This document shows positions 2,201-35,016 of a DNA stretch of 64,000 nucleotides, one piece after another (position 1 is the stretch's first letter; the number at the start of each line of letters is the position of its first letter). The translations under genes were made by a program, and so were the position numbers. Origin of the DNA: an uncultured Verrucomicrobiota bacterium (GTDB taxonomy: Bacteria > Auribacterota > JABMQX01); contig CAYZXL010000003.1 of the NCBI GenBank assembly GCA_964482435.1, positions 69,472 through 133,471 on the forward strand, written 5' to 3'. The notes below the pieces were generated by a model. That model did not search any database, was not told the DNA's origin, and worked only from the letters and a program-made list of their open reading frames with translations.

Positions 2201-2815
2201 ATGAACAATCCCCTTCGGTCCATCCCGGCTTGCCTGGTTCTTATGGCGGTCGCGATTTCGCCCGGGCCGCAGAAGCAGCCGCCCAACCTCGTCCCCAACA
2301 GCACACTGGAGCAGGGGAGAACGGCTCCCCTCGGCTGGGATGTGCTTCCTTTGGACGGGTCAATTCGCTGGCTTTCGTCGGGCGGCAACCCCGGCCGTTG
2401 TCTCGTTTTCACTCTTTCGCAAGACATTGCAGAAGGGCCGGGGATGCTTTACTACAGCGGCTTCTTTCCGGTGGAGGATGGCAAGAAGTACGTCTTTTCT
2501 GTTGACATCAAGACCGACGGGCCGGTCCCTCGTCCCTTCGTGAAAGGCTATGCCCTTGCCCCCGACGCACAAGGCGTCATTGCGAAGCGCCCCTTCTACC
2601 AGAGACAATCAGTTTTCCCCGCTACCAACGAATGGCAGACTTACTCCATGACCTTCACGCCAAAGGCAGTTCCCGGATACAAGGGAAGGTACGACATCAA
2701 ATGGGCGAGGGTTATGCTTTACGCATACCTGAAACCGGGGAGCATTTACTTCGACAACGTCATTGTCCGGGAGGCACCTGCTAAAGAGAATCCATCTTCC
2801 GCCGGCAAGCGGTGA
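2201..2815 (+). CDS. secreted hypothetical protein
   Basis: ATG directly abuts the stop of the upstream ORF (TAGATG). N-terminal hydrophobic signal-like segment. No family recognised. Confidence 0.45.
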   Translation: MNNPLRSIPACLVLMAVAISPGPQKQPPNLVPNSTLEQGRTAPLGWDVLPLDGSIRWLSSGGNPGRCLVFTLSQDIAEGPGMLYYSGFFPVEDGKKYVFSVDIKTDGPVPRPFVKGYALAPDAQGVIAKRPFYQRQSVFPATNEWQTYSMTFTPKAVPGYKGRYDIKWARVMLYAYLKPGSIYFDNVIVREAPAKENPSSAGKR

Positions 2816-2824
2816 GCCGAACCT

Positions 2825-3991: not shown

Positions 3992-4003
3992 TTTCCACTC
4001 CTC

Positions 4004-4597
4004 CTACGGCGACCCCACAAGAATCACCGACTCCATCGGCATCCCTTCTTCGGGAAAATAGATGTGATCCACCTCCGGAGAAGCCGGAATCATCCGCCCG
4101 CGATTCTCGAACCCCCTCAAGACCAGCCAGTATTCGCTCGGGCTGATATAGGACCGCCTTACGTCTTCATCCAGGGAAATCAGTTCTTTCGCGGAGGGGA
4201 ACTGCTCTGCCTTATCCAGTGGCAGTTTGTCCGTCGTTTCCTTGATAGGGGCGCGGCCGGAGAAAACGATCGCACCCGCCACAAACACAACCGCCGCAGC
4301 CGCGCGGACCGGCCAAGCAACCCACCGGCTCCTCAACAGCCTCCCCCAGATCCCGCCCCTTTCCACGGCCCCTCCCTCTTCCGCCCTGATTTGAGCCATC
4401 ACCGCATCCACGTACCGCCGCCGCGGCTCAATGCTCCGCCACGAGTCGAGCATCTTCGTCGTCGCGCGAAGCGCCGCAAGCTCCGTCGAGCAGAAGACAC
4501 ACACCTCCAGATGCTTCTGGAGGGCTTTCGCCTCGTCTTCGGTCAGCTCATTGTCCAGATAAGCTGGCAGTTGTCTTATTGTTTTCCTGCAATTCAT
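4004..4597 (-). CDS. anti-sigma factor, zf-HC2 type, single-pass membrane
   Basis: Start MNCRKTIRQLPAYLDNEL. HxxxCxxC zinc motif (HLEVCVFC). Central TM helix (WVAWPVRAAAAVVFVAGAIVF). 3' overlap with the ECF sigma gene. Confidence 0.65.
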   Translation of the reverse strand: MNCRKTIRQLPAYLDNELTEDEAKALQKHLEVCVFCSTELAALRATTKMLDSWRSIEPRRRYVDAVMAQIRAEEGGAVERGGIWGRLLRSRWVAWPVRAAAAVVFVAGAIVFSGRAPIKETTDKLPLDKAEQFPSAKELISLDEDVRRSYISPSEYWLVLRGFENRGRMIPASPEVDHIYFPEEGMPMESVILVGSP

Positions 4598-5201
4598 CGC
4601 CCTGCAAAGCTTTCTTCCCCGCCACATAGTCCGCTAAAAACTCCTTCATCCGCATCTTTGCCCGAAAAATCCTCGACTTCACCGTCCCCTTTGAACACCT
4701 GAGAATCTTCGCTATCTCCTCATAGCTCATGTTCTCGTAATGGCTCAGGAGAATCGCCATCCTCTGGTGCCGCGGAAGCTTTGACACCGCCAGCCGCACA
4801 ACCCCCGCGACCTCATTCCTCTGTAACCTCTCGTACGCCGACTCACCATCCGCCTCGTAGAAATCTATCACGTTCGAGCTCTGCCCCACCGGCGCCTCCA
4901 GCGAGATAAACCGATACTTCTTCGTCTTCCGAAGATAATCCCTCGCCAGATTCGCCGCGATTGTGTAGAGCCACGTCGAGAACCTTCCGCTTCCTTTGAA
5001 CCTCCCGCGCGACTGATAGATTCTCAGGAGAGTCGCCTGCACAAGGTCTTCGGCCTGAGCGACGTTCCCGACGAACCTGTTGAGAAAGTTCAGCAGCTTT
5101 TTCTCGTACCGGGACGCGAGTTCCGCGAAGGCGTCCATGTTCCCCTTCTGCACCAGGGACATGGCCTCTTCGTCCGAAAGGACTTCCAATGGCCTTTTCA
5201 T
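4548..5201 (-). CDS. RNA polymerase sigma-70 factor, ECF subfamily
   Basis: Sigma region 2 (FAELASRYEKKLLNFLNRFVGNVAQAEDLVQATLLRIYQ, STWLYTIAANLARDY) and region 4 HTH (YEEIAKILRCSKGTVKSRIFRA). Confidence 0.85.
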   Translation of the reverse strand: MKRPLEVLSDEEAMSLVQKGNMDAFAELASRYEKKLLNFLNRFVGNVAQAEDLVQATLLRIYQSRGRFKGSGRFSTWLYTIAANLARDYLRKTKKYRFISLEAPVGQSSNVIDFYEADGESAYERLQRNEVAGVVRLAVSKLPRHQRMAILLSHYENMSYEEIAKILRCSKGTVKSRIFRAKMRMKEFLADYVAGKKALQGDELQENNKTTASLSGQ

Positions 5202-5385
5202 CCTTCGGCTGCCCTCAAACAGTTATAACGTAAGCGCACCAGACTGGTTCCATACCCAAACCCAATTTCCTGCGAGCTGTGCACTTCCATCCCGATAAAT
5301 GTTACCTGATTTGTCTTCCCCTGTCAGCAGACGAACGCGGCCCTCTGCGACACAGGGGCAAGTGTCTCCCTCCGCTATCCCTGCT

Positions 5386-5600
5386 ACTGGTTCTCCAGAA
5401 TCCGACAAAAGCGGCTGGGGACCAGGCTCGGCGGAAGGCCGGTGAGGGAGCCGTCGTCGGTCCGGGAGGTCACTGTATTGCTGCACGCGTGCACACCGCA
5501 GACCACCACTATTGATTCTCCAGAGTGCGGTAGAAGCGGCGGGGAACGAGGCCCGGCCGTGAGCCTGTCTGGGAGCCGTCGTCGGTCCAGGAGGTCGTTG
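5386..5600. repeat. imperfect tandem duplication (~90 bp x2, ~75% identity) of the 3' end of the beta-helix gene
   Basis: Copy 2 (5509-5600) is the authentic gene end encoding ...RPGLVPRRFYRTLENQ-stop. Copy 1 (5385-5480) lies 124 bp downstream of the stop and encodes a related tail ...LPPSLVPSRFCRILENQ-stop in another frame. Shared DNA core gggagccgtcgtcggtccNggaggtc. Confidence 0.6.
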
Positions 5601-8400: not shown

Positions 8401-8838
8401 GTTGAGCTCCCCTCATAGCTTGCTCCTCGTGGTGGGCCGCTGGCATCGAAAAACCCGACGCCGAAACAGGCAGCCGGCTCAAATCTTTGGCAAATTGTAT
8501 CACATAAAGACGGGCGAGTCAACACGCGATTGTTTCTACCCTGTCGCCACAAGCTATTGACTCCGGCGCTTGTATTGTGTAATTTTCAATGAGTTACGTG
8601 GAGAGAAAGAGGTCATCCGATAACCCCTCAGCTCTGGCGGAGAAAGCAAAAAGAGACCTGCTTTTTTGGATGTGCCACGAGGGGTGCGAGTGTTGCCGCG
8701 TCCATCTGCGGTTCATTTCTTGCGCGCTCAGGCGAGGCGGTCACCCCAAACTGACGGACCACATAATCACAGCGGGTCAGGGCGCAGCCGCGGCACATAC
8801 ATCAAGCATCGCGTACAGACTCGCAGAAGGTTCGCATC

Positions 8839-9207
8839 ATGGAGAAGTTCGTGGATTTTGATGAAGGCGTCAAGGCAATCCTGCAGCGAGACAGGAGGTA
8901 CGCGAGGGATGCATACGACTTCGTCCGAGAAGCACTCGAATACACTCGCGTCTGGACGGATAAAAAGGGGCATGTCACCGGGCAGCAGCTCCTCGACGGA
9001 ATTCGTAAGTACGCCCTCGAGCAATTTGGTCCGATGGCAAAGACCGTCCTCAATCTCTGGGGAGTAAAGAGCTGCGAGGATTTCGGGTCCATCGTGTTTA
9101 ACCTCGTTGACCAGAAGGTTTTCTCCAGGACACCAGAGGATTCGATGGACGATTTCCGAAGCGGGTACGATTTCCACGAGGCGTTCGAGAAGCCGTACAA
9201 AAATTAG
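8839..9207 (+). CDS. conserved hypothetical protein (small, cytoplasmic)
   Basis: 122-aa ORF with no competing frame. Family not confidently recognised. Confidence 0.5.
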   Translation: MEKFVDFDEGVKAILQRDRRYARDAYDFVREALEYTRVWTDKKGHVTGQQLLDGIRKYALEQFGPMAKTVLNLWGVKSCEDFGSIVFNLVDQKVFSRTPEDSMDDFRSGYDFHEAFEKPYKN

Positions 9208-9261
9208 CAGCCGGGGCAACTTGAGCTATTAAGCACCAACCCCATTGATACCGGAGGAGAA

Positions 9262-9654
9262 ATGCCAGAGTCCGACGAAGAAGCAAAGGTTCACGAGGCG
9301 AGGTTTCTCGCGCTGATTTCCGGGTTGTCGAGCGGCGTCATGCAACACCTCGGCAAGATCGTAAACCCGCTCACCGGCAACATCGAAAGAGACCTCGACG
9401 CCGCCAAGGCGACCATTGACCTCCTTAGAACGCTCAGGGAGAAGACGAAGGGCAACCTCACCGGCCGAGAGGAACGAACGTTCAACGCGTTGCTCAGCGG
9501 CGTCCAACTCAATTATCTCGACGAGCTAAAGGCCGAAGCCGAGAAGCCGAAAGAGAAGCCGGAAGAGAAGCCAGGCGAGGAGAAGAAGGAGGTTGACAGG
9601 GGAAAGGCCGCGGAATCGGGCAAGGAGGGTGGCGTTGAGGGAGACAAGAAGTAG
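9262..9654 (+). CDS. DUF1844-family protein
   Basis: Matches the DUF1844 pattern FLALISGLSSGVMQHLGKIVNPLTGNIERDLDAAKATIDLLRTLREKTKGNL. Lys/Glu-rich tail. Confidence 0.6.
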   Translation: MPESDEEAKVHEARFLALISGLSSGVMQHLGKIVNPLTGNIERDLDAAKATIDLLRTLREKTKGNLTGREERTFNALLSGVQLNYLDELKAEAEKPKEKPEEKPGEEKKEVDRGKAAESGKEGGVEGDKK

Positions 9655-15066: not shown

Positions 15067-15420
15067 CTATTCCAGAAATTGCCAGTCGTACCTGCGCAGG
15101 GCGAGCGATTTGCCCGTAACGCTCTTCAACGATTCTTTTTTCAGAAACGCCTCAAACGCCTCCATGAGATATTTCGTCGTCCAGGGCTCGACCCTCACGT
15201 ATATGACGCCCTGCTTCGACAAGGGCCGAAACTTCGCTTGATTCTTCATCCGACGGTCTGATGTGATGAAAATGTCCCCCCCCACTTTCAGATACTCCAA
15301 CACCATCTGGTCCGATCGGTTAGGCAAGTTTATCCCCGCCACGGACGAAACGCTAATACCTTTCTGCTCGAGAAGTTTCTTGACGCCAAGCGGGATGCAC
15401 TCGTCGAGAATGACTTTCAT
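15067..15420 (-). CDS. DUF5615-family protein (PIN-like, putative toxin of DUF433/DUF5615 pair)
   Basis: 117 aa, MKVILDECIPLGVKKLLEQKG, matching the DUF5615 N-terminal pattern. Sits immediately downstream of a DUF433 gene. Confidence 0.55.
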   Translation of the reverse strand: MKVILDECIPLGVKKLLEQKGISVSSVAGINLPNRSDQMVLEYLKVGGDIFITSDRRMKNQAKFRPLSKQGVIYVRVEPWTTKYLMEAFEAFLKKESLKSVTGKSLALRRYDWQFLE

Positions 15421-23771: not shown

Positions 23772-24535
23772 ACCCGGGGTCCATTGAGCCGGAGCTCTAC
23801 GCTCCCATTGCCAAAAAGGGACGCGGAGACGTCGTCCTCCACCCCATACCACCTTCGGCGCTTTTTGTGCGGGAAACCTGCGGCTGCATTCTGGGCGTGT
23901 CTCAGGCGGCTTCTCAGAGTGCGGCTACGTCTGAGTGGTGGAATGAGAGCCGAGGGCTCGACGAGGGCAGCCACCGGTTGGCCGTAACACCGCCTCCCAG
24001 GGGGGAGCAGTCTGGAGGGTATGCTCCGCCGCGAAACCCGATTTAGCTTGCATCGCGCCACGCGGCTTTTCGCGGGTCCAGGCTTCGACCGCTCGCGCGG
24101 GCTGCCAACGAACTGCGTCTGAAGCTGGAGCCCTCGATGAACAAATCTGTTCATACACAGCGCACAAGGCCGTCGCGCCCGGGCCATCGTGCGCTCTTTT
24201 CTGAACGTACCGAAGGGCCACTTGGTGCGAGCTTGCTCGAAAAACCGCTCTACCGAAGCCGCTTTTGCGACAAATCGAGCGTAAATGCTTGCGATCCGGG
24301 GTAAAAAAGCATCGCTCGGGCGGGTTGCTGACCGGCCTGCCAGTTGGCAACACCGTTGGAATCGTTCTTGCCTTGTTCCTCGCCATCCTTTTCAGCGCGC
24401 AAACCGCCACGCTTTTGTGGCCGTGCACACTGTGGCCAGAAAGAGCGGGGGGCGCGCTATCTCCTGCGGTTTAGAAGTCGCACTCGCCGTAGGACAACTT
24501 CACACAGTTCAATCGTAACGTCGCCGGGAGAGACT

Positions 24536-25936
24536 ATGCGCTACAGGGCCGTGCTATGCGCTGTGGCAGGAATTGCCGTGCTGTTCACGGAGCGGGATTG
24601 TTGCTCCGATCCTTTCACCTTTTACGATGATTTTGAAGGCTACGCAAACACCACACAGATGAGGGTCGTCTGGGACCCAGACAGCAGCATCTTTCTGGGC
24701 CAGCAGGGTTCCAACCAATATCTCAGGTATCGAGTAGCCGCTGGAAGCGCAAGAAGAGCCTCGACCTGGATAAACCCCACCGGCAGTCTGATGGGAGATA
24801 ATCTCAGCGCCTACGTAAGGTGCACCGCGGTCAATTCGGGGTATGCCTACTTCTACCTCAGGTCAGGGAGTTACGATTACAGGTCTATTGCGCGGTATCC
24901 ACTGAGCACAGGGATGGGATGGGCTACCTTCAGCCTCTCAGACATTGTACCGGACGATTTCGTGCGGTTCAGCGGCAAGGGCACGCCAGACCTCTCCAAT
25001 GTGAACAGACTTGGAGTAACCTTTTGGGTAAACACGCAGGGCCTCGGCTACCAGTACATGGAAGCAGACAACTTCTCAGTCACTCCGGAGCCGTGCGCTC
25101 TGCTTGCGCTCGGTGTGCCATGCGGAATTCTGACCCGATCAATGCTGCGAAGAAAGACACGCTTACGGCCTCGTGTGGTTGGCGCCTCGCTTTCAAGCGC
25201 GCTTTTTAGTCAACAATTTCCGTCTTGTCCTCGCGAGCTATGGGCACGACAAGGCTGTCAGGAGTTCTCCCCTCCCCTACGGGCGCAGTGTTCAGATTTA
25301 TCCCCGGCAAAAAGCGAGTCAGGTGACTGGCGCGCCCTTTGTTCGGGGTGGCCGCGTTTCGTGAGGGTGCCGTTCTTCGACCAGAGCAGCTTCTCCTCCA
25401 CATCCAAGGCCGGGATGAGGGGGCGTGCATCCGCACGGGTTGAACTCGCGGTTGAGCCGCCAGACGCAACGGCGTGCCGTAGCGCGCAAAATTGCGCAAC
25501 ATTCGCACCGGGAACGGACAAGTTTGTACCCTCTTCGGCCTGGAGAACGGACGGAACCCGGCGCCAGGGAATCTTTCGGCAACTGGCCGCATTGTTTTGT
25601 CCATCCCACTATCCAGATTATCCCGGGAAAAACCACCGCTCTATCCGAAATCTCCATCAAGTCAAGACATTTCCGCAAGTTTTTTCCCCGTCATGGGAAC
25701 ATGCGGATTTTTGCCCAAGTTCGCCGCTCGGTTGGCAGCGTTCTTGCTTACCGTCCACCGGTCGTTTCGCCGCAGCGTTGACTCCTGTTGACCGGGCGAA
25801 ACGTCGCGCTAAGGAACTCACCAACTTCGATAGTGTCGCCGTGGGGACTATACAAGTCAAGTCGTTGAGGCGGACTGTGCGCGGAGCCCGCTTCGATTTA
25901 AGTTTTAGACAATCACCACGGGATTTCACTCGATAG
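24536..25936 (+). CDS. PEP-CTERM-like secreted protein with anomalous C-terminal read-through (possible pseudogene or lost stop)
   Basis: Start MRYRAVLCAVAGIAVLF (signal peptide). PEP-CTERM sorting motif VTPEPCALLALGVPCGILTRSMLRRKTR ends about 25162. The frame then continues without a stop for ~260 low-complexity codons to 25936. Confidence 0.45.
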   Translation: MRYRAVLCAVAGIAVLFTERDCCSDPFTFYDDFEGYANTTQMRVVWDPDSSIFLGQQGSNQYLRYRVAAGSARRASTWINPTGSLMGDNLSAYVRCTAVNSGYAYFYLRSGSYDYRSIARYPLSTGMGWATFSLSDIVPDDFVRFSGKGTPDLSNVNRLGVTFWVNTQGLGYQYMEADNFSVTPEPCALLALGVPCGILTRSMLRRKTRLRPRVVGASLSSALFSQQFPSCPRELWARQGCQEFSPPLRAQCSDLSPAKSESGDWRALCSGWPRFVRVPFFDQSSFSSTSKAGMRGRASARVELAVEPPDATACRSAQNCATFAPGTDKFVPSSAWRTDGTRRQGIFRQLAALFCPSHYPDYPGKNHRSIRNLHQVKTFPQVFSPSWEHADFCPSSPLGWQRSCLPSTGRFAAALTPVDRAKRRAKELTNFDSVAVGTIQVKSLRRTVRGARFDLSFRQSPRDFTR

Positions 25937-26007: not shown

Positions 26008-26490
26008 ATGAACAAAGTAGTGAGAGGTCTGGCGGTCGCTCTTGTGACCGTCGCTTTGGTCGGGACAGCGAGCGCTGCCACAAGTACCTCCCAGGTGCAG
26101 GTGACGGTTCCTCTGTTCGATATCCTTTCGGTATCGAACTCCGGGGTGATCACGCTCAGCGTTTCGCAGGGTGATAGCGAGATGACGGGCAGCGATAACA
26201 GCGCGTTGCTCTGGTATGTGCACACCGGCAGCGGCAGCAAGAAGATAACCGCGGCAGTCACCACGGACCCCAGCGGGGCAGACGACATCACGCTTACCGT
26301 CCAGGTTACCGATGGTAACGGTCAACAGACTATTTACCTTTCGGGGACAGCGACGGCGGCGAAGGATGTTTACACAAACATTTCCCGCGGGATTCTTTGG
26401 AACAAAACTGTCGCCTACACCGCCGCTGCGACCACTACTGAGGCAGGGTCCTACACGTTCGTGGTCACATTCACGAGCACGGATCAGTAG
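26008..26490 (+). CDS. SCPU (spore coat U)/Csu-type pilin-like secreted subunit
   Basis: AAAGGAGG RBS. Signal peptide ...GTASA. N-terminal ATSTSQVQVTV donor-strand-like segment. C-terminal GSYTFVVTFTSTDQ resembling the SCPU tail (G-x-Y-x-D-T-V-T-V-T-V). Confidence 0.55.
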   Translation: MNKVVRGLAVALVTVALVGTASAATSTSQVQVTVPLFDILSVSNSGVITLSVSQGDSEMTGSDNSALLWYVHTGSGSKKITAAVTTDPSGADDITLTVQVTDGNGQQTIYLSGTATAAKDVYTNISRGILWNKTVAYTAAATTTEAGSYTFVVTFTSTDQ

Positions 26491-26586: not shown

Positions 26587-27078
26587 ATGAAACTGAGAAG
26601 GTTTTCCAAAGTTGTAAGCTTAATTGTCTCCATCGGAGAAGCAAGTGGCTACTACCCCACTGCGGGAGGGGTATCAATCGCGGTTGTCGGCGACTGGAAC
26701 ACGACTATCAGCGCGACCGACCTAACCCACGGAATAGAGGGTATCCCCAGGGCGATGCGCCCCGCCAGCGCCTTCGAGAGCAGTTGCCGCAGCGCCGCCG
26801 ATCAGATTCGCCTCGAGGTCTCAGGGGCAAGAGGGAGATGGAAGGTCTTTGTTCGCAAGGGCGACGCCAACTGGCCGGACGACTTCGTACTCAAGGTCGA
26901 AAAAAGCTCCGGAGCCGACCGCCGGATAGTAACTGTCAGCGACGCGGATAAAGAGTTTTTCTCCGGCACCGGTAACGGCGTTCACTGCATACAAATCGGC
27001 TTAGATGGGCTATCCGCGGCAGTCGCCGCCGGCACTTACACGACGACGCTTGTTTTCACTATAACGGATGGCGAGTAA
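26587..27078 (+). CDS. second SCPU/Csu-like subunit (minor subunit or adhesin candidate)
   Basis: Ends AAGTYTTTLVFTITDGE, the same tail pattern as the subunit above. The N-terminus is atypical. Confidence 0.45.
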   Translation: MKLRRFSKVVSLIVSIGEASGYYPTAGGVSIAVVGDWNTTISATDLTHGIEGIPRAMRPASAFESSCRSAADQIRLEVSGARGRWKVFVRKGDANWPDDFVLKVEKSSGADRRIVTVSDADKEFFSGTGNGVHCIQIGLDGLSAAVAAGTYTTTLVFTITDGE

Positions 27079-27090
27079 GGGGAGAAAGCG

Positions 27091-27960
27091 ATGAGTAACT
27101 TGAAGACGAAAAGAGAAAAAACATGGGCATGGTGGTTGAGCTTGCTCGTGATGTCTTCCTGGGCAGTTCTTTCGGCCGCCCCTGCATGGGCCGCGACCGC
27201 GGTTGTGGGAGGATTGACGCGCGAGACAACCTCGAGGGTCGGGGAAACTTATCGGGGCGTCGTCGTCTTGAAGAACGATGGCGACGAGCCGCAAGAGGTC
27301 AAACTTTACCAAACCGACTACATGTTTAACAGCGAGGGAACAACGTTCTACGGCGAGCCGGGCAAATTGGAGCGTTCAAACGCCGATTGGGTCTCCTTCA
27401 GTCCCAGCAGGCTGACAATCCCTGCGAAGGGTTCTGCGGGGGTGGACTACACGGTTGAGGTTCCGGACGATAAGTCCATGACGGGGACCTACTGGAGCAT
27501 TCTGATGGTGGAGCCCATAGGGAGCAATTCCCCCGAAGCGACCTATCGGCTCGAGGCCGCAAATGTCTCGGTGGGTATCCGCGAGGTTACACGGTTGGGG
27601 ATTCAGGTTGTGACCCATATCGGGGATACCGGCAAGCCCAGACCATACTTTCTGAGGGCAAGGCTCACGACGAAACAAGACAGCACCCGCGTGCTGTGTG
27701 TTGACCTGGAAAACAGAGGGGAACGATGGATGATCCCCACCGTCTGGGCGGAGGCGTACGACGAGGAGGGGCGTCTCCTCGGCAGTTTCCAGGGCGGAAA
27801 GAAGCGAATCTATCCGGGAACTTCCGTCAGGTACGAGACCGACCTGAGCAATCTGCCGGAAGGGAGCTACAGGGTCCTGGTCGTGGCAGACGCGGGCAAT
27901 GACCAGGTTTTCGGCGCTAACTACACTCTGAAACTTCACAAGGCACCCACTGGAGAATAG
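27091..27960 (+). CDS. putative periplasmic pilus chaperone (PapD-like, tentative)
   Basis: Signal peptide. Beta-sandwich-like alternation with YRGVVVLKNDGDEPQEVKLYQTDYMF and GTYWSILMVEPIG, reminiscent of the PapD N-domain. The position between subunits and the usher-like gene fits Csu gene order. The assignment is tentative. Confidence 0.35.
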   Translation: MSNLKTKREKTWAWWLSLLVMSSWAVLSAAPAWAATAVVGGLTRETTSRVGETYRGVVVLKNDGDEPQEVKLYQTDYMFNSEGTTFYGEPGKLERSNADWVSFSPSRLTIPAKGSAGVDYTVEVPDDKSMTGTYWSILMVEPIGSNSPEATYRLEAANVSVGIREVTRLGIQVVTHIGDTGKPRPYFLRARLTTKQDSTRVLCVDLENRGERWMIPTVWAEAYDEEGRLLGSFQGGKKRIYPGTSVRYETDLSNLPEGSYRVLVVADAGNDQVFGANYTLKLHKAPTGE

Positions 27961-27966
27961 CAGATA

Positions 27967-29196
27967 GTGCGTGGCAAATGGGCACTCATTCTTGCTGGCG
28001 CTGGGCTTCTCGCCGACATCCATACTCAGGCCGCCGGCAGCCCTGTCTCGGTCAGCCCGGCAAGGGAATCGGTTCTCGAGACCAATCCAAGACAGGTGGT
28101 AACCGCGGCTTTTCGGGTTACCAACAGCAGCGAGGAAATGAAAGACCTTCTCGTTCGGGTGGACCTCCCGAGCGGGTGGAATCGTTTGAGCGAGGAGGCC
28201 CCTTTCCAGCTCGGGCCCGGCGAGAGCACCGTCAGACTCATGAGCTTTTTCGTTCCCTCAGAAGCCCTCCCCGGCACTTACGAACTCACCTACTCCCTCT
28301 CTAACCCCGAGACCGGAACTCTTCTTGGCGCGTCTCCCTTGAGTGTGATTGTTGTGCCGTTCACGAAACTGGAGGCGAAGTTACTGCGAGCTCCCGATTA
28401 CGTGGTTGCCGGGGAGGAGTATCAGGCCTTGTTCACTGTTACGAACCATGGGAATGCCATCTGTGCCACACGGGTGAAACTTGACAGTAGCGACGGTTTC
28501 GCGGCCAACCCAGACCCCGCGATGCTCGAGCTTGGCCCGGGACAGTCCAGAGAAGTCGCGGCAACAGTCAAGACCGATCCGGGATTCCGGCAGGAAGGAA
28601 CTCATCGGCTCGAACTGCGGCTGATACCGCCGGAGGGCGACGAGGGCAAACCGTTAGCGTCGGCGAAGAGCTCTGTCGAGATTGTGCCCCAGGTGGCGGG
28701 GACGGACGACCCCTTCCATCGGCTGCCGGTGAAATTTGCCGTTCGCAGCATCACCGAGAGCGGCCTCGCCAGAGACCAGAAGTTCCAGGCCAACTTCATG
28801 GGCTCGGGGACCCTCGACGACGAGGGGAAAAAGCGGATTGATTTTCTGTTTCGCGGGCCAGATGCCCACGATTGGTCAACTCTCGCCGAGAGGGATGAGT
28901 ATCGCCTCAGCTATCAGACCGACAAGTACCAGGTCCATCTCGGCGACCACATCTATTCCCTTTCCCCCTTGACTGAATGGTATCGCTACGGTTGCGGGAT
29001 TGACGTAGGCTTTAATTTTGACCGGTTCAGCCTTGGCGGATACCGCCAGGAAAGCCGCTGGTTCGAGCCGAAAGAGGAGCAGGTCGGCGCACGTTTGGGC
29101 TATCAAATAGCGGATAATTACAGCATCGGCCTTAATTGCCTGAAAAAAAAAACGCTGACCCATCGTTTCGACCAGGGAGTGACGGCGAGATTGTGA
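27967..29196 (+). CDS. outer-membrane usher-like protein, N-terminal fragment (frameshifted at A10)
   Basis: Signal peptide. Three CARDB/DUF11-like Ig domains (VTNSSEEMKDLLVRVDLPSGW, VTNHGNAICATRVKLDSSDGF). Start of beta-barrel-like strands. Terminates 15 codons after the A10 tract at 29143-29152. Confidence 0.5.
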   Translation: MRGKWALILAGAGLLADIHTQAAGSPVSVSPARESVLETNPRQVVTAAFRVTNSSEEMKDLLVRVDLPSGWNRLSEEAPFQLGPGESTVRLMSFFVPSEALPGTYELTYSLSNPETGTLLGASPLSVIVVPFTKLEAKLLRAPDYVVAGEEYQALFTVTNHGNAICATRVKLDSSDGFAANPDPAMLELGPGQSREVAATVKTDPGFRQEGTHRLELRLIPPEGDEGKPLASAKSSVEIVPQVAGTDDPFHRLPVKFAVRSITESGLARDQKFQANFMGSGTLDDEGKKRIDFLFRGPDAHDWSTLAERDEYRLSYQTDKYQVHLGDHIYSLSPLTEWYRYGCGIDVGFNFDRFSLGGYRQESRWFEPKEEQVGARLGYQIADNYSIGLNCLKKKTLTHRFDQGVTARL

Positions 29197-30830
29197 GCCT
29201 GCGGGGATTATTCACTCCGTTGGGGCGCATCGGCCTTGATACCGAATACGCAATAGGCAACAGCGAGACCGGGGATGGCGGCTCACAAGACGACGCGTAT
29301 CGAATCAAGCTTGACGGGCATGAGAAATGGGTCTCTTATCAACTCGAGATGGTTCATGCAGGACCGGACTGCCCCGGCTACTACAGGGACCTCGATTTCA
29401 AATCAGCACAGGTGAGCATCCCGGTTTGGGATTCGCTCAGGCTCAATGCTCAGTGGCGCGACCACCAGCAAAACCCCGACCTTAACCCAGCCTTTCGGAC
29501 CGCCCTTCATAGCAGGCACTCTCAGCTTGGTTTTTCGTACAGGCTTGGTCCTCGGACGAACGTCTCTCTCGACTATCGGAATCGTTTGCTCGAAGACCTT
29601 TTACCGCATCCGGAGTTCGATTCTCGGGAGGAGACCCTGGGGCTGGCTGTGGGGCAACAGTTCAAGAACTTCAGTCTCTGGGTCTCAGCAGAGGGCGGAG
29701 AAGAACTCGACAGCACCGCCGATCGCGATGACGCCAGAGGACCAATTCAGAGGTATTCGCTCTCGGCCCTGCTGAACCCGGCTTCAAATCAATCCTACAA
29801 AGCCTTCCTTCAGTTCGACGAAGGCGGTCTCTGCGCCGGGGGCGACAGCAGGCTAACCGGTGGCGTCGGCGCGTCGTTCAGTCTCGGGAAGACCACTTCA
29901 CTCAGCGTCAACTTCCTGAGGAACCAGTATGCCGGGGCGATAAGCAGAAGCCGCGACCAGTTTGACCTCCTCCTCGGCCACAGGTTTCGGAATGAGCACG
30001 AGCTTCTGGTCCGCGGGAGGTATGCTTTCCATGATAACTCTGTCGAGAAAGACGAGACCTGTGTCATCGTCGAGTATGGCATCCCGTTTTCGGTGCCAGT
30101 GAGCCGCAAGACCAAAACCGCGATGCTCCAGGGCCGGGTTTACGATGCGGAAAATGGCCAGAGGGCAATACCGGGCGTCGTCGTGAGGCTCAACCAGTTG
30201 ACCACCGTCACCGATAGGAGGGGAAACTTCATTTTCGGCTCCCTGAAGCCGGGCAAGTACTATCTCACGCTTGATAAAGCAGGCATCGGCATGAACAGAC
30301 TAACGGTCCAGAGCAGTCCCCTCGGAGTAGTCGTTGCGGGAGGAAAGAGAAATTGGGTCGAGGTGGGCGTTACGCGACGCGCCCGGGTCAAAGGGCGGGT
30401 CGCGGTTTACCCGGCCACGCGCGAGCAGAACGCAACGCCAGGCTGGAATCGGGAAGCCGAGCGCGTCGCCGGGGAAAAAGCCCAGGCCAATGCACCCCCG
30501 GGAGAGCCGGTGTTTACCGCCAACGGCTTGCACGAATCGGCCGACTCATACGGGCTGCCAAATGTCCTGGTGGAGCTTTCGAATTCCTCCGAGGTCCTGC
30601 GCCGCTTCACTGACAGGAAAGGGCGGTTTCTGTTTGAAGATGTGCGGCCGGGGGACTGGACGCTCAAGGTCGTCAACGCCGAGCTGCCGGAGCATCATTA
30701 CCTGGAAAAGGAGTCCTTCTCTCTCGACCTGAAACCCGCCGACGAGAAGGAATTCCTGGCGAGGGTGCTGCCCCGGGAACGACCCATCCAGATAATAGAG
30801 ACCGGCGAGGTGATTGGGCAAACGCCGTAG
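29136..30830 (+). CDS. outer-membrane usher-like protein, C-terminal fragment (continues the upstream ORF in the +1 frame)
   Basis: Amphipathic beta-strand barrel-like region, then two CarboxypepD_reg-like beta-sandwich domains (GRVYDAENGQRAIPGVVVRLN...GKYYLTLDKAG; GRFLFEDVRPGDWTLKVV). Fuses in-frame with 27967-29196 if the A-tract is 11 (or 8) nt. Confidence 0.5.
   Translation: MPEKKNADPSFRPGSDGEIVSLRGLFTPLGRIGLDTEYAIGNSETGDGGSQDDAYRIKLDGHEKWVSYQLEMVHAGPDCPGYYRDLDFKSAQVSIPVWDSLRLNAQWRDHQQNPDLNPAFRTALHSRHSQLGFSYRLGPRTNVSLDYRNRLLEDLLPHPEFDSREETLGLAVGQQFKNFSLWVSAEGGEELDSTADRDDARGPIQRYSLSALLNPASNQSYKAFLQFDEGGLCAGGDSRLTGGVGASFSLGKTTSLSVNFLRNQYAGAISRSRDQFDLLLGHRFRNEHELLVRGRYAFHDNSVEKDETCVIVEYGIPFSVPVSRKTKTAMLQGRVYDAENGQRAIPGVVVRLNQLTTVTDRRGNFIFGSLKPGKYYLTLDKAGIGMNRLTVQSSPLGVVVAGGKRNWVEVGVTRRARVKGRVAVYPATREQNATPGWNREAERVAGEKAQANAPPGEPVFTANGLHESADSYGLPNVLVELSNSSEVLRRFTDRKGRFLFEDVRPGDWTLKVVNAELPEHHYLEKESFSLDLKPADEKEFLARVLPRERPIQIIETGEVIGQTP
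29143..29152 (+). repeat. A10 homopolymer at the ORF junction (candidate slipped-strand phase-variation site)
   Basis: ctgAAAAAAAAAAcgc. A10 gives stop after ...LKKKTLTHRFDQGVTARL. A11 would give the fused protein ...LKKKNADPSFRPG... Confidence 0.6.
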
Positions 30831-31004: not shown

Positions 31005-32996
31005 CTACGATTCTTTTTGAGGGCCTTCCCCGGCCTTCTTGATACCCTTCTCGAGACTGCCTTTCGCGGTCGCGAAATGCCTCATCAAGGTTGCTGCCAG
31101 GCCTTCAACGGCACCGGAACTATTTCCGCCAGCCACAAGAATATCAGGTACGAATTTCACGTTCTTTTCAGCTAAGGCGGTGACAACGTTGACCACGGCG
31201 GTTGGCGTCTGCCCCAGAGCTTCGACCTGTGCACGATAAGCCTCCGCCCGGGCTAAACCTACTGCTCTGACCTCGGCGCCCCTGGCGGTTCCTGTTCTCT
31301 GGATGTATTCGGCCTCGCCGTCAGCTTCCGCCTTCCGGGCCATTGCCCTGTTTTCGGCAATTGTCACCTCAACCTCCGATGTAGCCAGCTTAGCCTGCAT
31401 ATCCGCCTGGCCCTTAGCCTTCTCCATCAGAATTCTTTTCTCCTGGGACTCCTGCTGTTTCTTGAGGGTCTCGATAAGCTGATTAGCGATCTCTCGCTGA
31501 GTCAGAACGTCCACGAGCTGCGACGGAAGAATAACATCCTGGATGTAAACACCTTTTGTTTCCACATCATACTGGGACAGCTTCTCGCTGATATGCTTAA
31601 ATGCTTCTTCTTGAACCTGCTGCCGAGTCTCGATGAATTTCACTGCCGGGAGGCTCTGGAGCTTGTCCCGGAAGTGATTGCCTACCGCTGCCTGCAAAAC
31701 CTCGCTAACTAAGTTCTTCATTGTGCCAACGATGGAAATGACCCGAGGCGCCTTTGTATCGGGCACGTGGATTTGCACCTGAAGGTCAATCCTGAAAAGG
31801 AAACCTTCCCTGCTTTTTGCATCAATGGGCTTGAGGTCAGCGTCGAGCTGGTGGGCCCGAGAGGTCGCGTCCGCCCAGCTCAGCGTCAAAATAAAGGTGG
31901 GCACAATCTCAGCCTGATAGCAGCGGGGATTGATCGGGTATTTGCCGGTTCGCAATGGTTCTTCCCAGATGCCGCGGTGCCCTGGTTTGACCAAGGTGCC
32001 GAACTTGAACTCCTTTCCCGACACGTCTTCGCTTGGCAAACCAACATACGACTTTATCACCGCCACCTCTCCCTGCTCTATAACCAGCATTGGCACCTTC
32101 TCGACGCTGATCAGGAAAGGATTCAGGTTGTACGCGCCGTAGAGGAGAGGGTCGTGCTGGAGTCCGATTCTGCCGCCGGTATCGAGGAATTTCTGGAAAT
32201 CTTGATAGTTGTTGTGGGCTTCATTCTTGGAACCTAAGATTGTTTCTATCAGTCTGGGACCGCTTTCATCCTTTTTCTCGAACTCCTCAATATCTCTAAA
32301 CCCTCCTATTCGGCTCGCAATGTCGCCGGCTGGCAAGGGGTCGCCCTCAAAAGCGGTAACAATGCCAATCACGTCAATCGTTTTGCCACCCTCACCATCT
32401 GGGTGCGGCACCGGTTCAATCCGACTGACATCGAGTTGCGCCGGTTTGAGGCCGAAGGCCCCGGGAGTGAGTATTCTATTTTCAGCGGCAAGTCTTTTCA
32501 GTTCGGACGAGACCGGGATGCCATAGACCTTTTCCTTAGTGATAACGAGGAATCCGACCGGATGAATGGGCGCCAGGCTTCCGGGAGGAAGGACTGGCCG
32601 TTGCACGCCTTTCTGGCCTCCATTCTCGACAAACTTCCTCAAGTTGGAGAAGTTGCCAAATTCCTTTTTGTAGGCAGCAGATTTTGCTCCCACCGGCAAC
32701 GCAGCACCAACCTGGGCAATGACGAGGCCGATTTGCCCGGCGGGCACCTGAACCCACGGATGGGTCTCCACCCTGTACAGAAGCCACAGCTTAAAACGGA
32801 GCCCCGGCATCAACAAGTCTGCCTGGTAACCAGCCTCCCCTTTGAAGCCAATCGGGTTGTCTTCGGAAAGCTTCTTTGCTGCAAAACGTTTAGTCACCAA
32901 TCCTATTTGCGTTGGCCCGATCACCCGAATGGACGCGAAAATCAAGAGCACTAATCCTATGCCGAGAACAATCAGAATCGTAACCTGAGCACCCAT
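31005..32996 (-). CDS. flotillin-like SPFH/band-7 membrane protein
   Basis: 663 aa. N-terminal TM. SPFH domain. Long Ala/Glu-rich coiled-coil (flotillin repeats) in the C-terminal half. Confidence 0.8.
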   Translation of the reverse strand: MGAQVTILIVLGIGLVLLIFASIRVIGPTQIGLVTKRFAAKKLSEDNPIGFKGEAGYQADLLMPGLRFKLWLLYRVETHPWVQVPAGQIGLVIAQVGAALPVGAKSAAYKKEFGNFSNLRKFVENGGQKGVQRPVLPPGSLAPIHPVGFLVITKEKVYGIPVSSELKRLAAENRILTPGAFGLKPAQLDVSRIEPVPHPDGEGGKTIDVIGIVTAFEGDPLPAGDIASRIGGFRDIEEFEKKDESGPRLIETILGSKNEAHNNYQDFQKFLDTGGRIGLQHDPLLYGAYNLNPFLISVEKVPMLVIEQGEVAVIKSYVGLPSEDVSGKEFKFGTLVKPGHRGIWEEPLRTGKYPINPRCYQAEIVPTFILTLSWADATSRAHQLDADLKPIDAKSREGFLFRIDLQVQIHVPDTKAPRVISIVGTMKNLVSEVLQAAVGNHFRDKLQSLPAVKFIETRQQVQEEAFKHISEKLSQYDVETKGVYIQDVILPSQLVDVLTQREIANQLIETLKKQQESQEKRILMEKAKGQADMQAKLATSEVEVTIAENRAMARKAEADGEAEYIQRTGTARGAEVRAVGLARAEAYRAQVEALGQTPTAVVNVVTALAEKNVKFVPDILVAGGNSSGAVEGLAATLMRHFATAKGSLEKGIKKAGEGPQKES

Positions 32997-33759: not shown

Positions 33760-35016
33760 TCACTTTCTAATCGGAATGAGGACGAGGTTGCGAAACTCCA
33801 TCGGTGAGCCCTCAGACTGGAGGCAGATTGCGCCGGGCGTTTCCCAGCAATCGGCAGCCGTATTCTGCACGAGCTCGTTGATCTTCAACTCGAGATACCC
33901 TCCATCGAGCGTTATCTCGTACTGGTTCCACTGGCCGACGGGTTTCTCATTGGACATGTACATCTTGCGAGTGTGCCGGCCGCTCGTCCGTGTTGGGTCG
34001 GTCTTCATGGGGAACTCGTCTATGTTCCAGATATCGCCAGTGGCTCCGTATTGCCCCTGCGCCTCAATGGACCGCGGCCAGACCTTGTCCGGGCCAACCA
34101 TCCGAAGCAGCACGCCACCGTTGCCGCTGCCGAGGTGGCGGAACTGAAGCCGCAGCACGTAATTGGTGAAATCCTCCGTCGTGCGGATGTAACCGATGGG
34201 CTGGCCTTTGTTCACCATCACCCCGTCTTTGACGCTCCAGGTGTCCCTGAGGGCGTCGCTGGACCGGGTCCAGCCATCGAGGTTCCTGCCGTTGAATAGG
34301 AGCTGCGCCTCGCCGAAAGCGTCGGGCAAGCGCGTGACCCGAATGTCCTTGAACTCGACGGTCATCGGGGCGCCGGGGCGAATTTGAAGGGCGAGGATGC
34401 CCTCCATCGCCCTTCCCTTCCGGTCGTTGTCAATCAGCTCGATGGTCTGGAATCCGTTGAGCATCTGGATCAGGTGATTGCCCCGCGCGATAATCGTGTA
34501 TTCGTTCCAGTCCTTTTCCTTGTAGTAGCGGGCCCTGATCAGCGCGTCTCTGTCGGCAATCTTCCCCACGACATTCTGGTTGCCCTTTTCATCAACCACC
34601 ATGATGTCCCCCACATTGACCATCCAGCCCCGCCCCGCCTCCTCGTACAGGAAGCCAGCCCTCCCCGGGGCGTTTGCCACCTCCGCCTGGTACCCGGCGA
34701 CGCGCCATCCTCCCAGGTGTCTGCTGCGGTACTGGATGCCAGAGTTGCCGTCCTGGAGACGAAATTTGATCTTGAGGATGAAGTTCTTCAACTTGCCGCC
34801 ACGCCAGATGCAGAAAGTATTCCGGCGGGCCGGCTTTTGTTCCGTGGTCCGCCCGCGAATGGCGCCGTGCACAACCGACCAGAGACGCGGGTCGCCGTCC
34901 CAACCGGTGAGGTCCTTGCCGTTGAAAATTGTCTCTTCAGTGAGCGCTGCCCAGGACGCCACGAAAGGCCCTGCGCCGAAGAGCAGAAGGCAAACGAGGA
35001 AAACCATTCGCTTCAT
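33760..35016 (-). CDS. secreted protein with two tandem DUF1080 (3-keto-disaccharide hydrolase-like) domains
   Basis: Signal peptide. Two copies of the DUF1080 pattern (FNGKDLTGWDGD...W.v.dG.i / FNGRNLDGWTRS...WSVKDGVM; NSGIQYRS / GNGGVLLR). Confidence 0.75.
   Translation of the reverse strand: MKRMVFLVCLLLFGAGPFVASWAALTEETIFNGKDLTGWDGDPRLWSVVHGAIRGRTTEQKPARRNTFCIWRGGKLKNFILKIKFRLQDGNSGIQYRSRHLGGWRVAGYQAEVANAPGRAGFLYEEAGRGWMVNVGDIMVVDEKGNQNVVGKIADRDALIRARYYKEKDWNEYTIIARGNHLIQMLNGFQTIELIDNDRKGRAMEGILALQIRPGAPMTVEFKDIRVTRLPDAFGEAQLLFNGRNLDGWTRSSDALRDTWSVKDGVMVNKGQPIGYIRTTEDFTNYVLRLQFRHLGSGNGGVLLRMVGPDKVWPRSIEAQGQYGATGDIWNIDEFPMKTDPTRTSGRHTRKMYMSNEKPVGQWNQYEITLDGGYLELKINELVQNTAADCWETPGAICLQSEGSPMEFRNLVLIPIRK

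What the first reader, a model, noticed from the sequence alone, without database searches (positions are those of the whole stretch)
29136..29196. A10 homopolymer splits the usher-like gene: candidate phase-variable ON/OFF switch
An A10 run (29143-29152) is exceptional in a high-GC coding region and sits exactly where the two ORFs overlap. A10 gives a truncated product after ...LKKKTLTHRFDQGVTARL. A11 (or A8) would yield a single ~950-aa protein, ...LKKKNADPSFRPGSDGEIVSLRGLFTPLG.... This is the classic signature of slipped-strand mispairing phase variation of a surface organelle. Alternatively it is a homopolymer sequencing error.
Basis: seen in the sequence. Interest (0 to 1): 0.7.

Follow-up and report, generated by a model that had tools for sequence, protein, structure and literature searches.

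The report
Conserved poly-A frameshift in usher-like gene
A real run of ten A's splits an outer-membrane, usher-like gene; the same "one A too short" break recurs at the same spot in at least ten distant uncultured bacterial lineages, so it looks like a maintained slippery site read through by polymerase or ribosome slippage, not a dead gene, an assembly error or a simple random on/off switch.

Summary
A10 lies at 29143-29152, and one extra A (or two fewer) fuses the two ORFs into a 954-aa protein. Four independent per-run assemblies are 100% identical to the window and all carry A10, so a random assembly error is unlikely.

The protein has a signal peptide, 2 Ig domains, a ~26-strand barrel (best fold matches FimD/PapC) and 2 C-terminal domains. 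It follows a PapD-fold gene in a cassette conserved across many phyla. It resembles an usher but does not match Pfam PF00577.

The key comparative result: 14 other loci, in at least 10 lineages with 26-69% aa identity, are broken at the homologous tract.
- Every broken tract is A9-A11.
- Every one needs +1 nt.
- 13 of the 14 are otherwise intact.
- No locus with a tract of 8 or fewer is broken there.
- Five Verrucomicrobiota-type orthologues (61-69% identity, dS 0.5-1) all keep A9 out of frame, with downstream dN/dS about 0.2.

My best reading (about 0.5) is a maintained recoding site: RNA polymerase adds an A, or ribosomes slip -1 on A_AAA_AAA, giving low-level full-length protein. DNA-level phase variation (about 0.3) is not excluded; one 99.9%-identical pair differs A9 versus A10. 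No RNA, protein or read-level data were available.

The parts
26008..26490 (+). Small secreted protein of 160 aa with a signal peptide; candidate subunit or substrate of the cassette
   Evidence: ORF and translation. No Pfam hit. An 83%-identical homologue sits in the same position in L005/L006, with weaker hits in a few other loci.
26587..27078 (+). Second small protein of 163 aa, conserved upstream partner
   Evidence: tblastn finds it just upstream of the chaperone-like gene in 71 related loci. No Pfam hit.
27091..27960 (+). Periplasmic two-domain protein of 289 aa with a PapD-like (pilus chaperone) fold
27967..29196 (+). ORF1, the 0-frame part of the barrel gene: signal peptide, two Ig-like domains and the first 9 barrel strands; stop TGA at 29194-29196
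   Evidence: Translation; Pfam NPCBM_assoc hit; AF2 model. This exact 409-aa product is present on 5 public contigs.
29143..29152 (+). A10 slippery tract (codons AAA AAA AAA A|CG). It is the shift site and contains an in-phase A_AAA_AAA heptamer.
   Evidence: The homologous tract is A9-A11 and out of frame in 14 other loci. It lies right after the conserved GLN(Y)L.K motif (N390, L392, K394), at the end of barrel strand 9.
29136..30830 (+). ORF2, the -1-frame part of the barrel gene: barrel strands 10-26 and two CarboxypepD_reg domains. It has no signal peptide of its own.
   Evidence: Translation; Pfam; AF2 model. Homologues align across the junction as single proteins of about 905-956 aa. 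Downstream dN/dS is 0.13-0.16 against L013 and L006.
27967..30830 (+). The whole recoded gene: usher-like outer-membrane beta-barrel of the 'COG1470 family', 954 aa if one A is added at the tract
   Evidence: The family name comes from the source names of Chryseobacterium relatives.

Best explanation
The A10 run is a genuine genomic feature, and the gene is not dead. It is one instance of a recurrent, evolutionarily maintained out-of-frame poly-A tract, one A short of in-frame. The tract lies in a loop-coding position of an usher-like outer-membrane barrel gene, which is the last gene of a conserved cassette of small proteins, a PapD-fold protein and the barrel. Standard decoding gives a 409-aa truncated product that stops 14 codons after the tract and is probably useless. 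Full-length 954-aa protein (...LNCLKKKNADPSF...) is made from a minority of expression events. Most likely RNA polymerase slips on the 10-bp rA:dT hybrid and adds one A to the mRNA (programmed or tolerated transcriptional realignment). Alternatively, or in addition, ribosomes slip -1 on A_AAA_AAA. The net effect is low, leaky expression of the barrel relative to the upstream genes. The same tract is also mutable in DNA, so lineages can move between in-frame and out-of-frame configurations. Shown here: the tract, its reproducibility, the recurrence and uniform direction of the break, the conservation of the state, purifying selection downstream, and the fold and context. Inferred: that slippage at the RNA or ribosome level happens, how efficient it is, and that attenuation is its purpose.
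For: 1. The tract is real. Four per-run Logan contigs are 100% identical to the window and carry A10, and both split products occur on 5 contigs.
2. The break is recurrent. Fifteen loci are broken at the homologous tract: the window, L013, L095, L097, L124, L126, L117, L101, L034, L113, L125, L127, L128, L129 and L130. No pair reaches 70% aa identity; they form 10 groups at 60% and 8 groups at 50%.
3. The direction is uniform. In all 15, adding one A restores the frame. For the six census loci L125-L130, removing one A was also tried and does not restore it. The repaired ORFs are 880-1000 codons stop-to-stop where the contig allows (L095 and L097 run off their contigs; L128 gives only 693).
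4. There is a length threshold. Broken tracts are A9 (nine loci), A10 (five) and A11 (one). None of the roughly 100 loci with tracts of 8 or fewer is broken there. This matches the roughly 9-nt length at which bacterial genomes show selection against slippage-prone A/T runs (PMC1088944; PMC6260861). A heptamer would already suffice for -1 ribosomal frameshifting.
5. The state is conserved. L013, L095, L097, L124 and L126 (61-69% aa identity) all have YTA-A8-CG, that is A9, out of frame, while the flanks have diverged. For L013, L095 and L097, pairwise dS is 0.5-1.1.
6. The downstream half is under purifying selection equal to the upstream half. dN/dS is 0.18-0.32 in pairs where both members are broken.
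7. Fourteen of the 15 loci carry this single lesion only.
8. In loci with GC of 0.55 or more, every tract of 9 or longer is out of frame (10 of 10), and AAA is the minority Lys codon.
9. In 96 genes, 12 of the 19 A-runs of 9 or longer lie in this 27-nt site.
10. There are precedents. Examples include Thermus dnaX A9 and the Shigella genes mxiE, spa13, spa33 and mxiA. Conserved poly-A frameshifts in Blochmannia and Buchnera are rescued by transcriptional slippage.
Against: There are no transcript, protein or read-level data, so slippage itself is inferred. More than 90% of family members are ordinary single ORFs, so the frameshift is not a family-wide requirement. The truncated product carries only 9 of about 26 barrel strands. 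It looks useless, which makes the arrangement wasteful. No conserved downstream RNA structure or upstream SD-like element was found; z-scores were about 0 in 9 of 10 folds. Any ribosomal component would therefore be unstimulated and inefficient. E. coli RNA polymerase slips less on A runs than on T runs, and nothing is known for the polymerases of these phyla. A DNA-level length difference exists between 99.9%-identical contigs, L113 with A9 and L069 with A10. At a second poly-A site in long homologues, one locus (L008) is off in the opposite direction. A strong deletion bias combined with selection for OFF could also yield many 'one-short' alleles. The window's tract is A10 in its own codon context, and its nearest relative L006 (60% identity) has an in-frame A7. 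Conservation is therefore shown for the sister clade, not for the window's own lineage.
Confidence: 0.5

Rival explanations
1. This is classical slipped-strand phase variation. Replication slippage changes the tract length heritably and reversibly. Populations are mixtures of ON (A11 or A8) and OFF (A10) cells, and the assemblies happen to capture OFF as the majority, for example because a surface structure or phage receptor is counter-selected.
For: The A10 tract lies inside an ORF for a likely surface-assembly protein, and a 1-nt change toggles the frame. L113 (A9, broken) and L069 (A10, intact) are 99.9% identical over 3 kb with a single gap. The family shows both in-frame and out-of-frame long tracts. 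Downstream ORFs are intact and under purifying selection, as expected if ON cells are regularly selected. At a second poly-A site both directions of error occur. Poly-A tracts are known phase-variation repeats, for example in Mycoplasma fermentans p78 (PMC3711429).
Against: All assemblies of the window's strain have A10, with no sequence variation over 7-12 kb. No ON allele with more than 60% identity was found in the search of 5.8 billion proteins. All 15 broken loci are in the same one of the two possible OFF frames. Five orthologues with 61-69% identity all have exactly A9, whereas a freely switching tract should show a spread of lengths and some ON alleles. In GC-rich lineages no in-frame tract of 9 or longer was seen at all.
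Confidence: 0.3
2. This is a recent inactivating mutation. The tract is merely a mutational hotspot, and the gene in this genome is a young pseudogene with no expression of full-length protein.
For: Homopolymers are deletion hotspots, and most relatives have intact genes. The nearest relative, L006, has a short in-frame A7 tract. One broken locus, L128, gives only 693 codons when repaired, which may indicate decay.
Against: Fourteen of the 15 broken loci carry no second lesion in 880-1000 codons. Broken orthologues have diverged to dS 0.5-1 while keeping downstream dN/dS about 0.2, the same as upstream. The identical A9 state is kept in five diverged lineages. The direction is uniform. The rest of the cassette in the window is intact.
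Confidence: 0.08
3. This is a homopolymer sequencing or assembly error. The true tract is A11, and the gene is an ordinary single ORF.
For: All of the data are short-read metagenome assemblies. Under-calling of long homopolymers would produce exactly 'one-short' tracts, as seen in all 15 loci.
Against: The same A10 appears in the window and in contigs assembled separately from four runs. The A11 out-of-frame state of L129 was seen on 4 contigs, with the shown contig reported from 3 samples. In-frame A10 was assembled correctly in 11 contigs and in-frame A9 in L011, L021, L051 and L052. The broken loci come from different pipelines and centres: SPAdes NODE contigs, MEGAHIT k141 contigs, JGI and Logan. 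Other A8 runs in the same loci are in frame. Short-read homopolymer indel errors at 10 nt are a minority of reads (my own background knowledge, not tested here).
Confidence: 0.04
4. This is a genuinely split gene. Two polypeptides are made by translational coupling, using the GTG at 29193 that overlaps the TGA stop of ORF1 (GTGA), and they assemble into one barrel.
For: The GTGA overlap exists, and gene callers used it as the start of the 545-aa product.
Against: The second polypeptide would have no signal peptide, so it could not reach the outer membrane. The break lies between strands 9 and 10 of a continuous barrel. The other broken loci show no conserved start-stop overlap, and their 0-frame tails run from 2 to about 19 codons.
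Confidence: 0.02

Closest known systems
Programmed transcriptional realignment in cellular genes: Thermus thermophilus dnaX (A9) and Shigella mxiE, spa13, spa33 and mxiA (T/A runs)
   Same: These genes have a homopolymer run of about 9 or more in the sense strand. RNA polymerase adds or removes a base, so part of the mRNA pool is in another frame. In mxiE and spa13 the longer, functional product requires an inserted base, as proposed here, and spa13, spa33 and mxiA are secretion-machine genes (PMC1088944; PMC5009743). The tract-length threshold of about 9 matches.
   Different: The gene family, the organisms and the cellular role are unrelated. Here the frameshift is present in only about 5-10% of family members rather than in all orthologues. 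The non-shifted product seems non-functional, unlike the dnaX gamma subunit. There are no experimental data.
Conserved poly(A) frameshifts rescued by polymerase infidelity in insect endosymbionts (Buchnera, Blochmannia; Tamas 2008 and Wernegreen 2010, as cited in PMC3017870)
   Same: A single indel sits in a poly-A tract of 9 or longer. The genes are otherwise intact, with no rate acceleration. The frameshift is conserved between species, and full-length product comes from a mixed mRNA pool. This is the closest match to the evolutionary pattern seen.
   Different: Those are tiny, AT-rich genomes with small effective population size and hundreds of long A tracts, where drift explains persistence. 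Here the hosts are free-living environmental bacteria, often GC-rich (0.55-0.67), with a single such tract in 64 kb. The same site is hit repeatedly in many phyla.
Slipped-strand-mispairing contingency loci of surface structures (for example Mycoplasma fermentans p78 poly-A, and homopolymer-controlled pilus or fimbrial and outer-membrane genes of pathogens)
   Same: A homopolymer lies inside the ORF of a surface or secretion component, and a 1-nt change toggles the frame (PMC3711429). One near-identical pair differs in tract length.
   Different: Defining population-level length heterogeneity was not found for the window's strain. The OFF alleles are all in one frame, and one clade keeps an identical tract length. 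The organisms are non-pathogenic and uncultured.
-1 programmed ribosomal frameshifting on A_AAA_AAG or A_AAA_AAA (E. coli dnaX, IS3/IS1 transposases) and ribosome sliding on poly(A) (PMC4363877)
   Same: An in-phase A_AAA_AAA heptamer is present in every broken locus. The protein product would be identical to that from an A+1 mRNA.
   Different: No stimulatory hairpin, pseudoknot or SD-like element was found. No broken alleles have A7-A8 tracts, although a heptamer would suffice.
Chaperone-usher pilus assembly (FimD/PapC ushers, PapD/FimC/CsuC chaperones)

Membership tests
Slipped-strand phase-variable (contingency) locus | A simple-sequence repeat in the ORF whose unit change toggles the reading frame | tested here: met
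   The tract is A10. A11 or A8 gives a 954- or 953-aa ORF.
Slipped-strand phase-variable (contingency) locus | Repeat-length polymorphism among cells or strains of the same lineage | tested here: inconclusive
   Window lineage: four extra assemblies all carry A10 and are 100% identical, and no intact allele was found in the protein database search. Elsewhere in the family, one pair (L113 A9, L069 A10) is 99.9% identical. Read-level heterogeneity could not be examined.
Slipped-strand phase-variable (contingency) locus | ON alleles and both OFF frames sampled among related lineages, with variable tract lengths | tested here: not met
   All 15 broken loci need +1 nt. Five orthologues of 61-69% identity all have A9. 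In-frame long tracts occur in only one low-GC clade.
Slipped-strand phase-variable (contingency) locus | Heritable, reversible phenotypic switching | not testable with these tools
   The organisms are uncultured, so no phenotype data exist.
Programmed (or tolerated) transcriptional realignment | An A or T run about as long as the RNA:DNA hybrid (about 9 or more) | tested here: met
   The window has A10. Broken homologues have A9 (nine loci), A10 (five) and A11 (one), and none is broken at 8 or fewer. The threshold comes from PMC1088944.
Programmed (or tolerated) transcriptional realignment | The run and the two-ORF arrangement are conserved among diverged orthologues, without indels in the run | tested here: met
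   L013, L095, L097, L124 and L126 all have A9 out of frame at 61-69% aa identity. For the window's own branch the nearest relative (60% identity) is in frame with A7, so conservation is shown for the sister clade only.
Programmed (or tolerated) transcriptional realignment | The trans-frame ORF is under purifying selection | tested here: met
   Downstream dN/dS is 0.18-0.32 in broken-broken pairs, equal to upstream. Fourteen of 15 loci have a single lesion.
Programmed (or tolerated) transcriptional realignment | An mRNA pool heterogeneous in run length, and a full-length protein | not testable with these tools
   No transcriptome or proteome access was available.
-1 programmed ribosomal frameshifting | A slippery heptamer X_XXY_YYZ in the 0-frame phase | tested here: met
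   A_AAA_AAA is in phase in the window and in all broken loci.
-1 programmed ribosomal frameshifting | A stimulatory element: a downstream hairpin or pseudoknot, or an upstream SD-like sequence | tested here: not met
   Of ten 70-nt downstream segments folded, nine have z-scores between -1.0 and +1.1, and only L095 reaches -2.1. No shared structure was found, and no GGAGG-like motif is visible upstream.
Chaperone-usher usher (FimD/PapC, Pfam PF00577) | Sequence membership in the Usher family | tested here: not met
   There is no PF00577 hit at E of 0.01 or better and no NCBIfam hit. A profile search of PDB sequences finds no usher.
Chaperone-usher usher (FimD/PapC, Pfam PF00577) | A large beta-barrel pore most similar to usher translocation domains | tested here: met
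   [not shown]
Chaperone-usher usher (FimD/PapC, Pfam PF00577) | A 24-strand barrel with an internal plug domain, plus N- and C-terminal periplasmic domains | tested here: inconclusive
   The AF2 model has about 26 strands and no inserted plug-like domain in the secondary-structure map. Two N-terminal and two C-terminal beta-sandwich domains are present. The 3D coordinates were not inspected.
Chaperone-usher usher (FimD/PapC, Pfam PF00577) | An adjacent PapD-like periplasmic chaperone and pilin-type subunits | tested here: inconclusive
   [not shown]

The most novel reading that the evidence does not exclude
A 'one-A-short' poly-A tract of 9 or more has evolved, or been retained, repeatedly at the same barrel-loop position of an uncharacterised chaperone-usher-like system in at least 8 deep lineages, including Verrucomicrobiota and Syntrophales MAGs and several unclassified metagenome lineages. 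On this reading it is positively selected as a programmed attenuator. RNA-level slippage sets a low dose of the outer-membrane pore, while rare DNA-level length changes flip lineages between 'leaky' and 'fully on' configurations. If so, it would be one of the most widely distributed recoding sites known in a non-mobile, non-housekeeping bacterial gene.
Probability: 0.35. Interest if true: 0.75.

Novelty: new member of a known kind. Interest (0 to 1): 0.6.

Why it matters
Recoding by polymerase or ribosome slippage is well documented in insertion sequences, phages, dnaX and a few type III secretion genes. It is rarely seen in ordinary chromosomal genes of free-living bacteria. Here a single site in a widespread but unstudied outer-membrane assembly cassette is broken in the same way in many unrelated uncultured lineages.

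If read-through is confirmed, three things follow. It adds a broadly distributed natural model for transcriptional realignment. It shows that conserved poly-A frameshifts are not confined to degenerate endosymbiont genomes. It also warns that genome annotation pipelines split or discard such genes: public gene calls give 409-aa and 545-aa fragments.

The work also gives a first structural handle on a 'COG1470 family' system (PapD-fold protein plus FimD/PapC-like barrel) that is present in many phyla. If the phase-variation reading is right instead, this would be a contingency locus in environmental Verrucomicrobiota, which is also uncommon.

Tried and rejected
- **Composition alone as proof of non-randomness:** dinucleotide shuffles give an A10/T10 run in 15% of trials, so I dropped this argument.
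- **Curated families:** NCBIfam gives no hit for the barrel gene or its neighbours, and Pfam gives domain-level hits only. No Rfam family is present in the window.
- **Solved relatives by sequence:** a PDB sequence search finds none.
- **Locus scan with the 54-sequence alignment:** it failed for lack of a conserved stretch. I repeated it with 13 sequences.
- **Search for a frameshift-stimulating RNA structure:** nothing consistent was found downstream of the tract in 8 broken and 2 intact loci. A stimulated -1 ribosomal frameshift is therefore not favoured.
- **Translational coupling (GTGA at 29193-29196):** rejected, because the second product would lack a signal peptide and the overlap is not conserved.
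- **Organism and sample:** no paper mentions ERR4334730. The window's own genome was not among the species representatives scanned. The Verrucomicrobiota assignment therefore rests only on the nearest homologues.
- **COG1470 literature:** one unrelated mention.
- **Tamas 2008 and Wernegreen 2010:** neither could be read, so they are cited only through PMC3017870.
- **Not possible with these tools:** read-level tract counts and any RNA or protein evidence.
Full report
**1. The observation**

The window reads ctgAAAAAAAAAAcgc at 29140-29155, so the A10 run occupies 29143-29152. ORF1 (27967-29196) ends ...GLNCLKKKTLTHRFDQGVTARL*. ORF2 (29136-30830) reads ...KKNADPSFRPGSDGEIVSLRGLF.... One added A gives a 954-aa ORF, and two removed A's give 953 aa.

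The -1 frame opens at 29136, after a TAA at 29133-29135, and the 0 frame closes at 29196. Any productive shift must therefore occur within 58 nt, and the tract is the only slippery element there. A10 is the only homopolymer longer than 8 in the 64 kb window, which has 57.6% GC. Composition alone does not make it significant: 15 of 100 dinucleotide shuffles contain an A10 or T10 run. AAA is the minority Lys codon, at 37%.

**2. Not an assembly accident**

The exact 545-aa and 409-aa products each occur on five public contigs. Four contigs assembled separately from runs ERR4334730, ERR4334733, ERR4334734 and ERR4334736 are 100% identical to the window over 7-12 kb, and each carries A10. The search of 5.8 billion proteins returned no intact version with more than 60% identity.

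**3. What the gene is**

Homologues are single proteins of about 905-956 aa, and some reach 1100-1200 aa. They occur in MAGs labelled Verrucomicrobiota, Planctomycetota, Desulfobacterota, Nitrospirota, Ignavibacteria, Zixibacteria, Synergistota and others. More distant relatives in cultured Chryseobacterium are named 'COG1470 family protein'.

Pfam detects only Ig-like and CarboxypepD_reg domains, and no Usher domain. An AlphaFold model (pLDDT 86) shows these parts:
- a signal peptide;
- two Ig-like domains;
- a barrel of about 26 strands (residues 250-714);
- two C-terminal beta-sandwich domains.

**4. The decisive comparative result**

I mapped the homologous site in 118 loci from the genome and metagenome scans. 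It lies after the conserved GLN(Y)L.K motif. This mapping found seven further loci broken exactly there: L013, L034, L095, L097, L101, L113 and L117. A protein search added L124.

An unbiased HMMER census with ORF1 then found more. Seven of the best 150 cluster representatives, clustered at 50% identity, end just after L.KK(K). Six were retrieved as DNA (L125-L130), and all six are broken at the tract.

Counting the window, that makes 15 loci. No pair reaches 70% aa identity, and they form 10 groups at 60% identity. Their shared properties:
- The tracts are A9 (nine loci), A10 (five) and A11 (one).
- In all 15, adding one A restores the frame. For L125-L130, removing one A was also tried and does not restore it. 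Where the contig allows, the repaired ORF is 880-1000 codons; L095 and L097 run off their contigs, and L128 gives 693.
- No locus with a tract of 8 or fewer is broken at this site.
- In 96 non-redundant genes, 12 of the 19 A-runs of 9 or longer lie in this 27-nt site.

**5. Conservation and selection**

On a neighbour-joining tree the window groups with L006 (A7, in frame). That pair is sister to L013, L095, L097 and L124, which are all A9 and out of frame. L126 belongs to the same group by identity.

These five share YTA-A8-CG, while the flanking sequence and the following loop have diverged. For L013, L095 and L097, pairwise dS is 0.5-1.1. Downstream dN/dS is 0.18-0.32, the same as upstream. 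So the part after the frameshift has been translated in the -1 frame over long periods.

In loci with GC of 0.55 or more, every tract of 9 or longer is out of frame (10 of 10). In-frame tracts of 9 or longer occur only in one clade with GC 0.43-0.46. There, related sequences interrupt the tract by substitution (L011, L026, L060-65), and so does cultured Desulfotalea psychrophila, which reads GATAAGAAAAGT.

**6. Mechanism**

A dead pseudogene is contradicted by the single-lesion pattern and by the purifying selection. An assembly error is contradicted by section 2, and also by correct assembly of in-frame A10 in 11 contigs and in-frame A9 in four loci.

Two live explanations remain.

*(a) RNA-level recoding.* RNA polymerase realigns on the rA:dT hybrid and adds an A, or ribosomes slip -1 on the in-phase A_AAA_AAA. 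Four observations favour this:
- All broken alleles are in the same one of the two possible OFF frames. This is hard to explain unless that frame is not truly OFF.
- The threshold of 9 matches the length at which many bacterial genomes avoid A/T runs, and the tracts used by Thermus dnaX and by IS elements (PMC1088944; PMC3711429). E. coli RNA polymerase needs more than 7 A's (PMC6260861). A heptamer would already allow a ribosomal shift.
- One clade conserves exactly A9.
- There are precedents in secretion genes (Shigella spa13, spa33, mxiA and mxiE; PMC5009743) and in endosymbiont poly-A frameshifts kept between species (PMC3017870).

I found no conserved downstream structure. If ribosomes contribute, they do so unstimulated, perhaps by sliding on poly(A) (PMC4363877).

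*(b) DNA-level phase variation.* L113 (A9, broken) and L069 (A10, intact) are 99.9% identical with a single gap. A strong deletion bias plus selection for OFF could produce many one-short alleles.

The two explanations are not exclusive, because poly-A is slippery in replication, transcription and translation (PMC3711429). I rate (a) at about 0.5, (b) at about 0.3, a pseudogene at about 0.08, an assembly error at about 0.04 and a split gene with translational coupling at about 0.02.

**7. Consequence for the cell (inferred)**

Standard decoding yields the signal peptide, two Ig domains and 9 of about 26 barrel strands. That product cannot form a barrel. Only shifted events give the pore. The tract would therefore hold the pore at a low level relative to the upstream cassette genes, or switch it off in most cells under explanation (b).

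**8. Limits**

- All sequences are metagenomic.
- No reads, transcripts or proteins were accessible.
- Conservation of the broken state is shown for the sister clade, not for the window's immediate lineage.
- Six of the broken loci were found by looking for truncated products. That biases their frequency but not their direction.
- The neighbour-joining tree and the Nei-Gojobori dN/dS estimates are simple methods, and dS is near saturation for the deeper pairs.

**9. Novelty**

The phenomenon is a known kind: homopolymer recoding or a contingency tract. This gene family, the cassette, the host phyla and the repeated use of one site are, as far as my searches show, undescribed. I score it as a new member of a known kind, with interest 0.6.

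Noticed in passing
L008 1468-1477; L055 3937-3946; L090 1766-1775; L021 6753-6761; L051 3795-3803; L052 2316-2324: There is a second poly-A site in the long (1100-1200 aa) Planctomycetota-type homologues. It lies in the linker between an extra N-terminal Ig module and the core protein. A9 is in frame in L021, L051 and L052. A10 breaks the frame in L055 and L090 (needing +1 or -2) and in L008 (needing -1 or +2). L008 is the only opposite-direction case seen anywhere in the family.
   Followed up: partly
L123 about 1395-1415: The frame breaks (3 to 2) next to an A7 run in the conserved PVxRKKS motif that follows the barrel. Either A8 or an extra G would repair it. The contig is short (2.2 kb), so an error is possible.
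   Followed up: partly
window 29193-29196: ORF1's stop TGA overlaps a GTG in the ORF2 frame (GTGA). Gene callers used this as the start of the 545-aa product. The overlap is not conserved in the other broken loci, and the product would lack a signal peptide.
   Followed up: yes
[not shown]
   Followed up: no
L131 (Desulfotalea psychrophila LSv54, CR522870.1) 2223-9642: A cultured organism with a finished genome carries the intact cassette. The barrel is 938 aa and the site reads GATAAGAAAAGT, with no tract. The cassette lies downstream of a sigma-54-dependent response regulator, which makes this a possible experimental entry point to the system's function.
   Followed up: partly
L128 1457-3537: After repair of its A10, this locus gives only 693 codons and lacks the C-terminal CarboxypepD_reg domains. 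A Prismane gene follows directly. The contig has 4.7x coverage, so this may be a decayed or misassembled copy.
   Followed up: no
L009 about 6605: The homologue changes frame (3 to 2) in its N-terminal extension with no homopolymer at the junction.
   Followed up: no
window 15276-15283: This C8 run is the second-longest homopolymer in the window. One minus-strand frame reads through it without stops, so it does not obviously break a gene.
   Followed up: partly
window 24344-25936: This large upstream ORF was called as 466 aa in public assemblies. It has no Pfam hit and is conserved only in the closest relative (L005/L006, 60% identity over 210 aa). It is not part of the widely conserved cassette.
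   Followed up: no
window 31005-32996 (- strand) and 33760-35016 (- strand): The convergent neighbours are a 663-aa SPFH/Band 7 protein and a 418-aa 3-keto-disaccharide hydrolase (DUF1080-type) protein.
   Followed up: no
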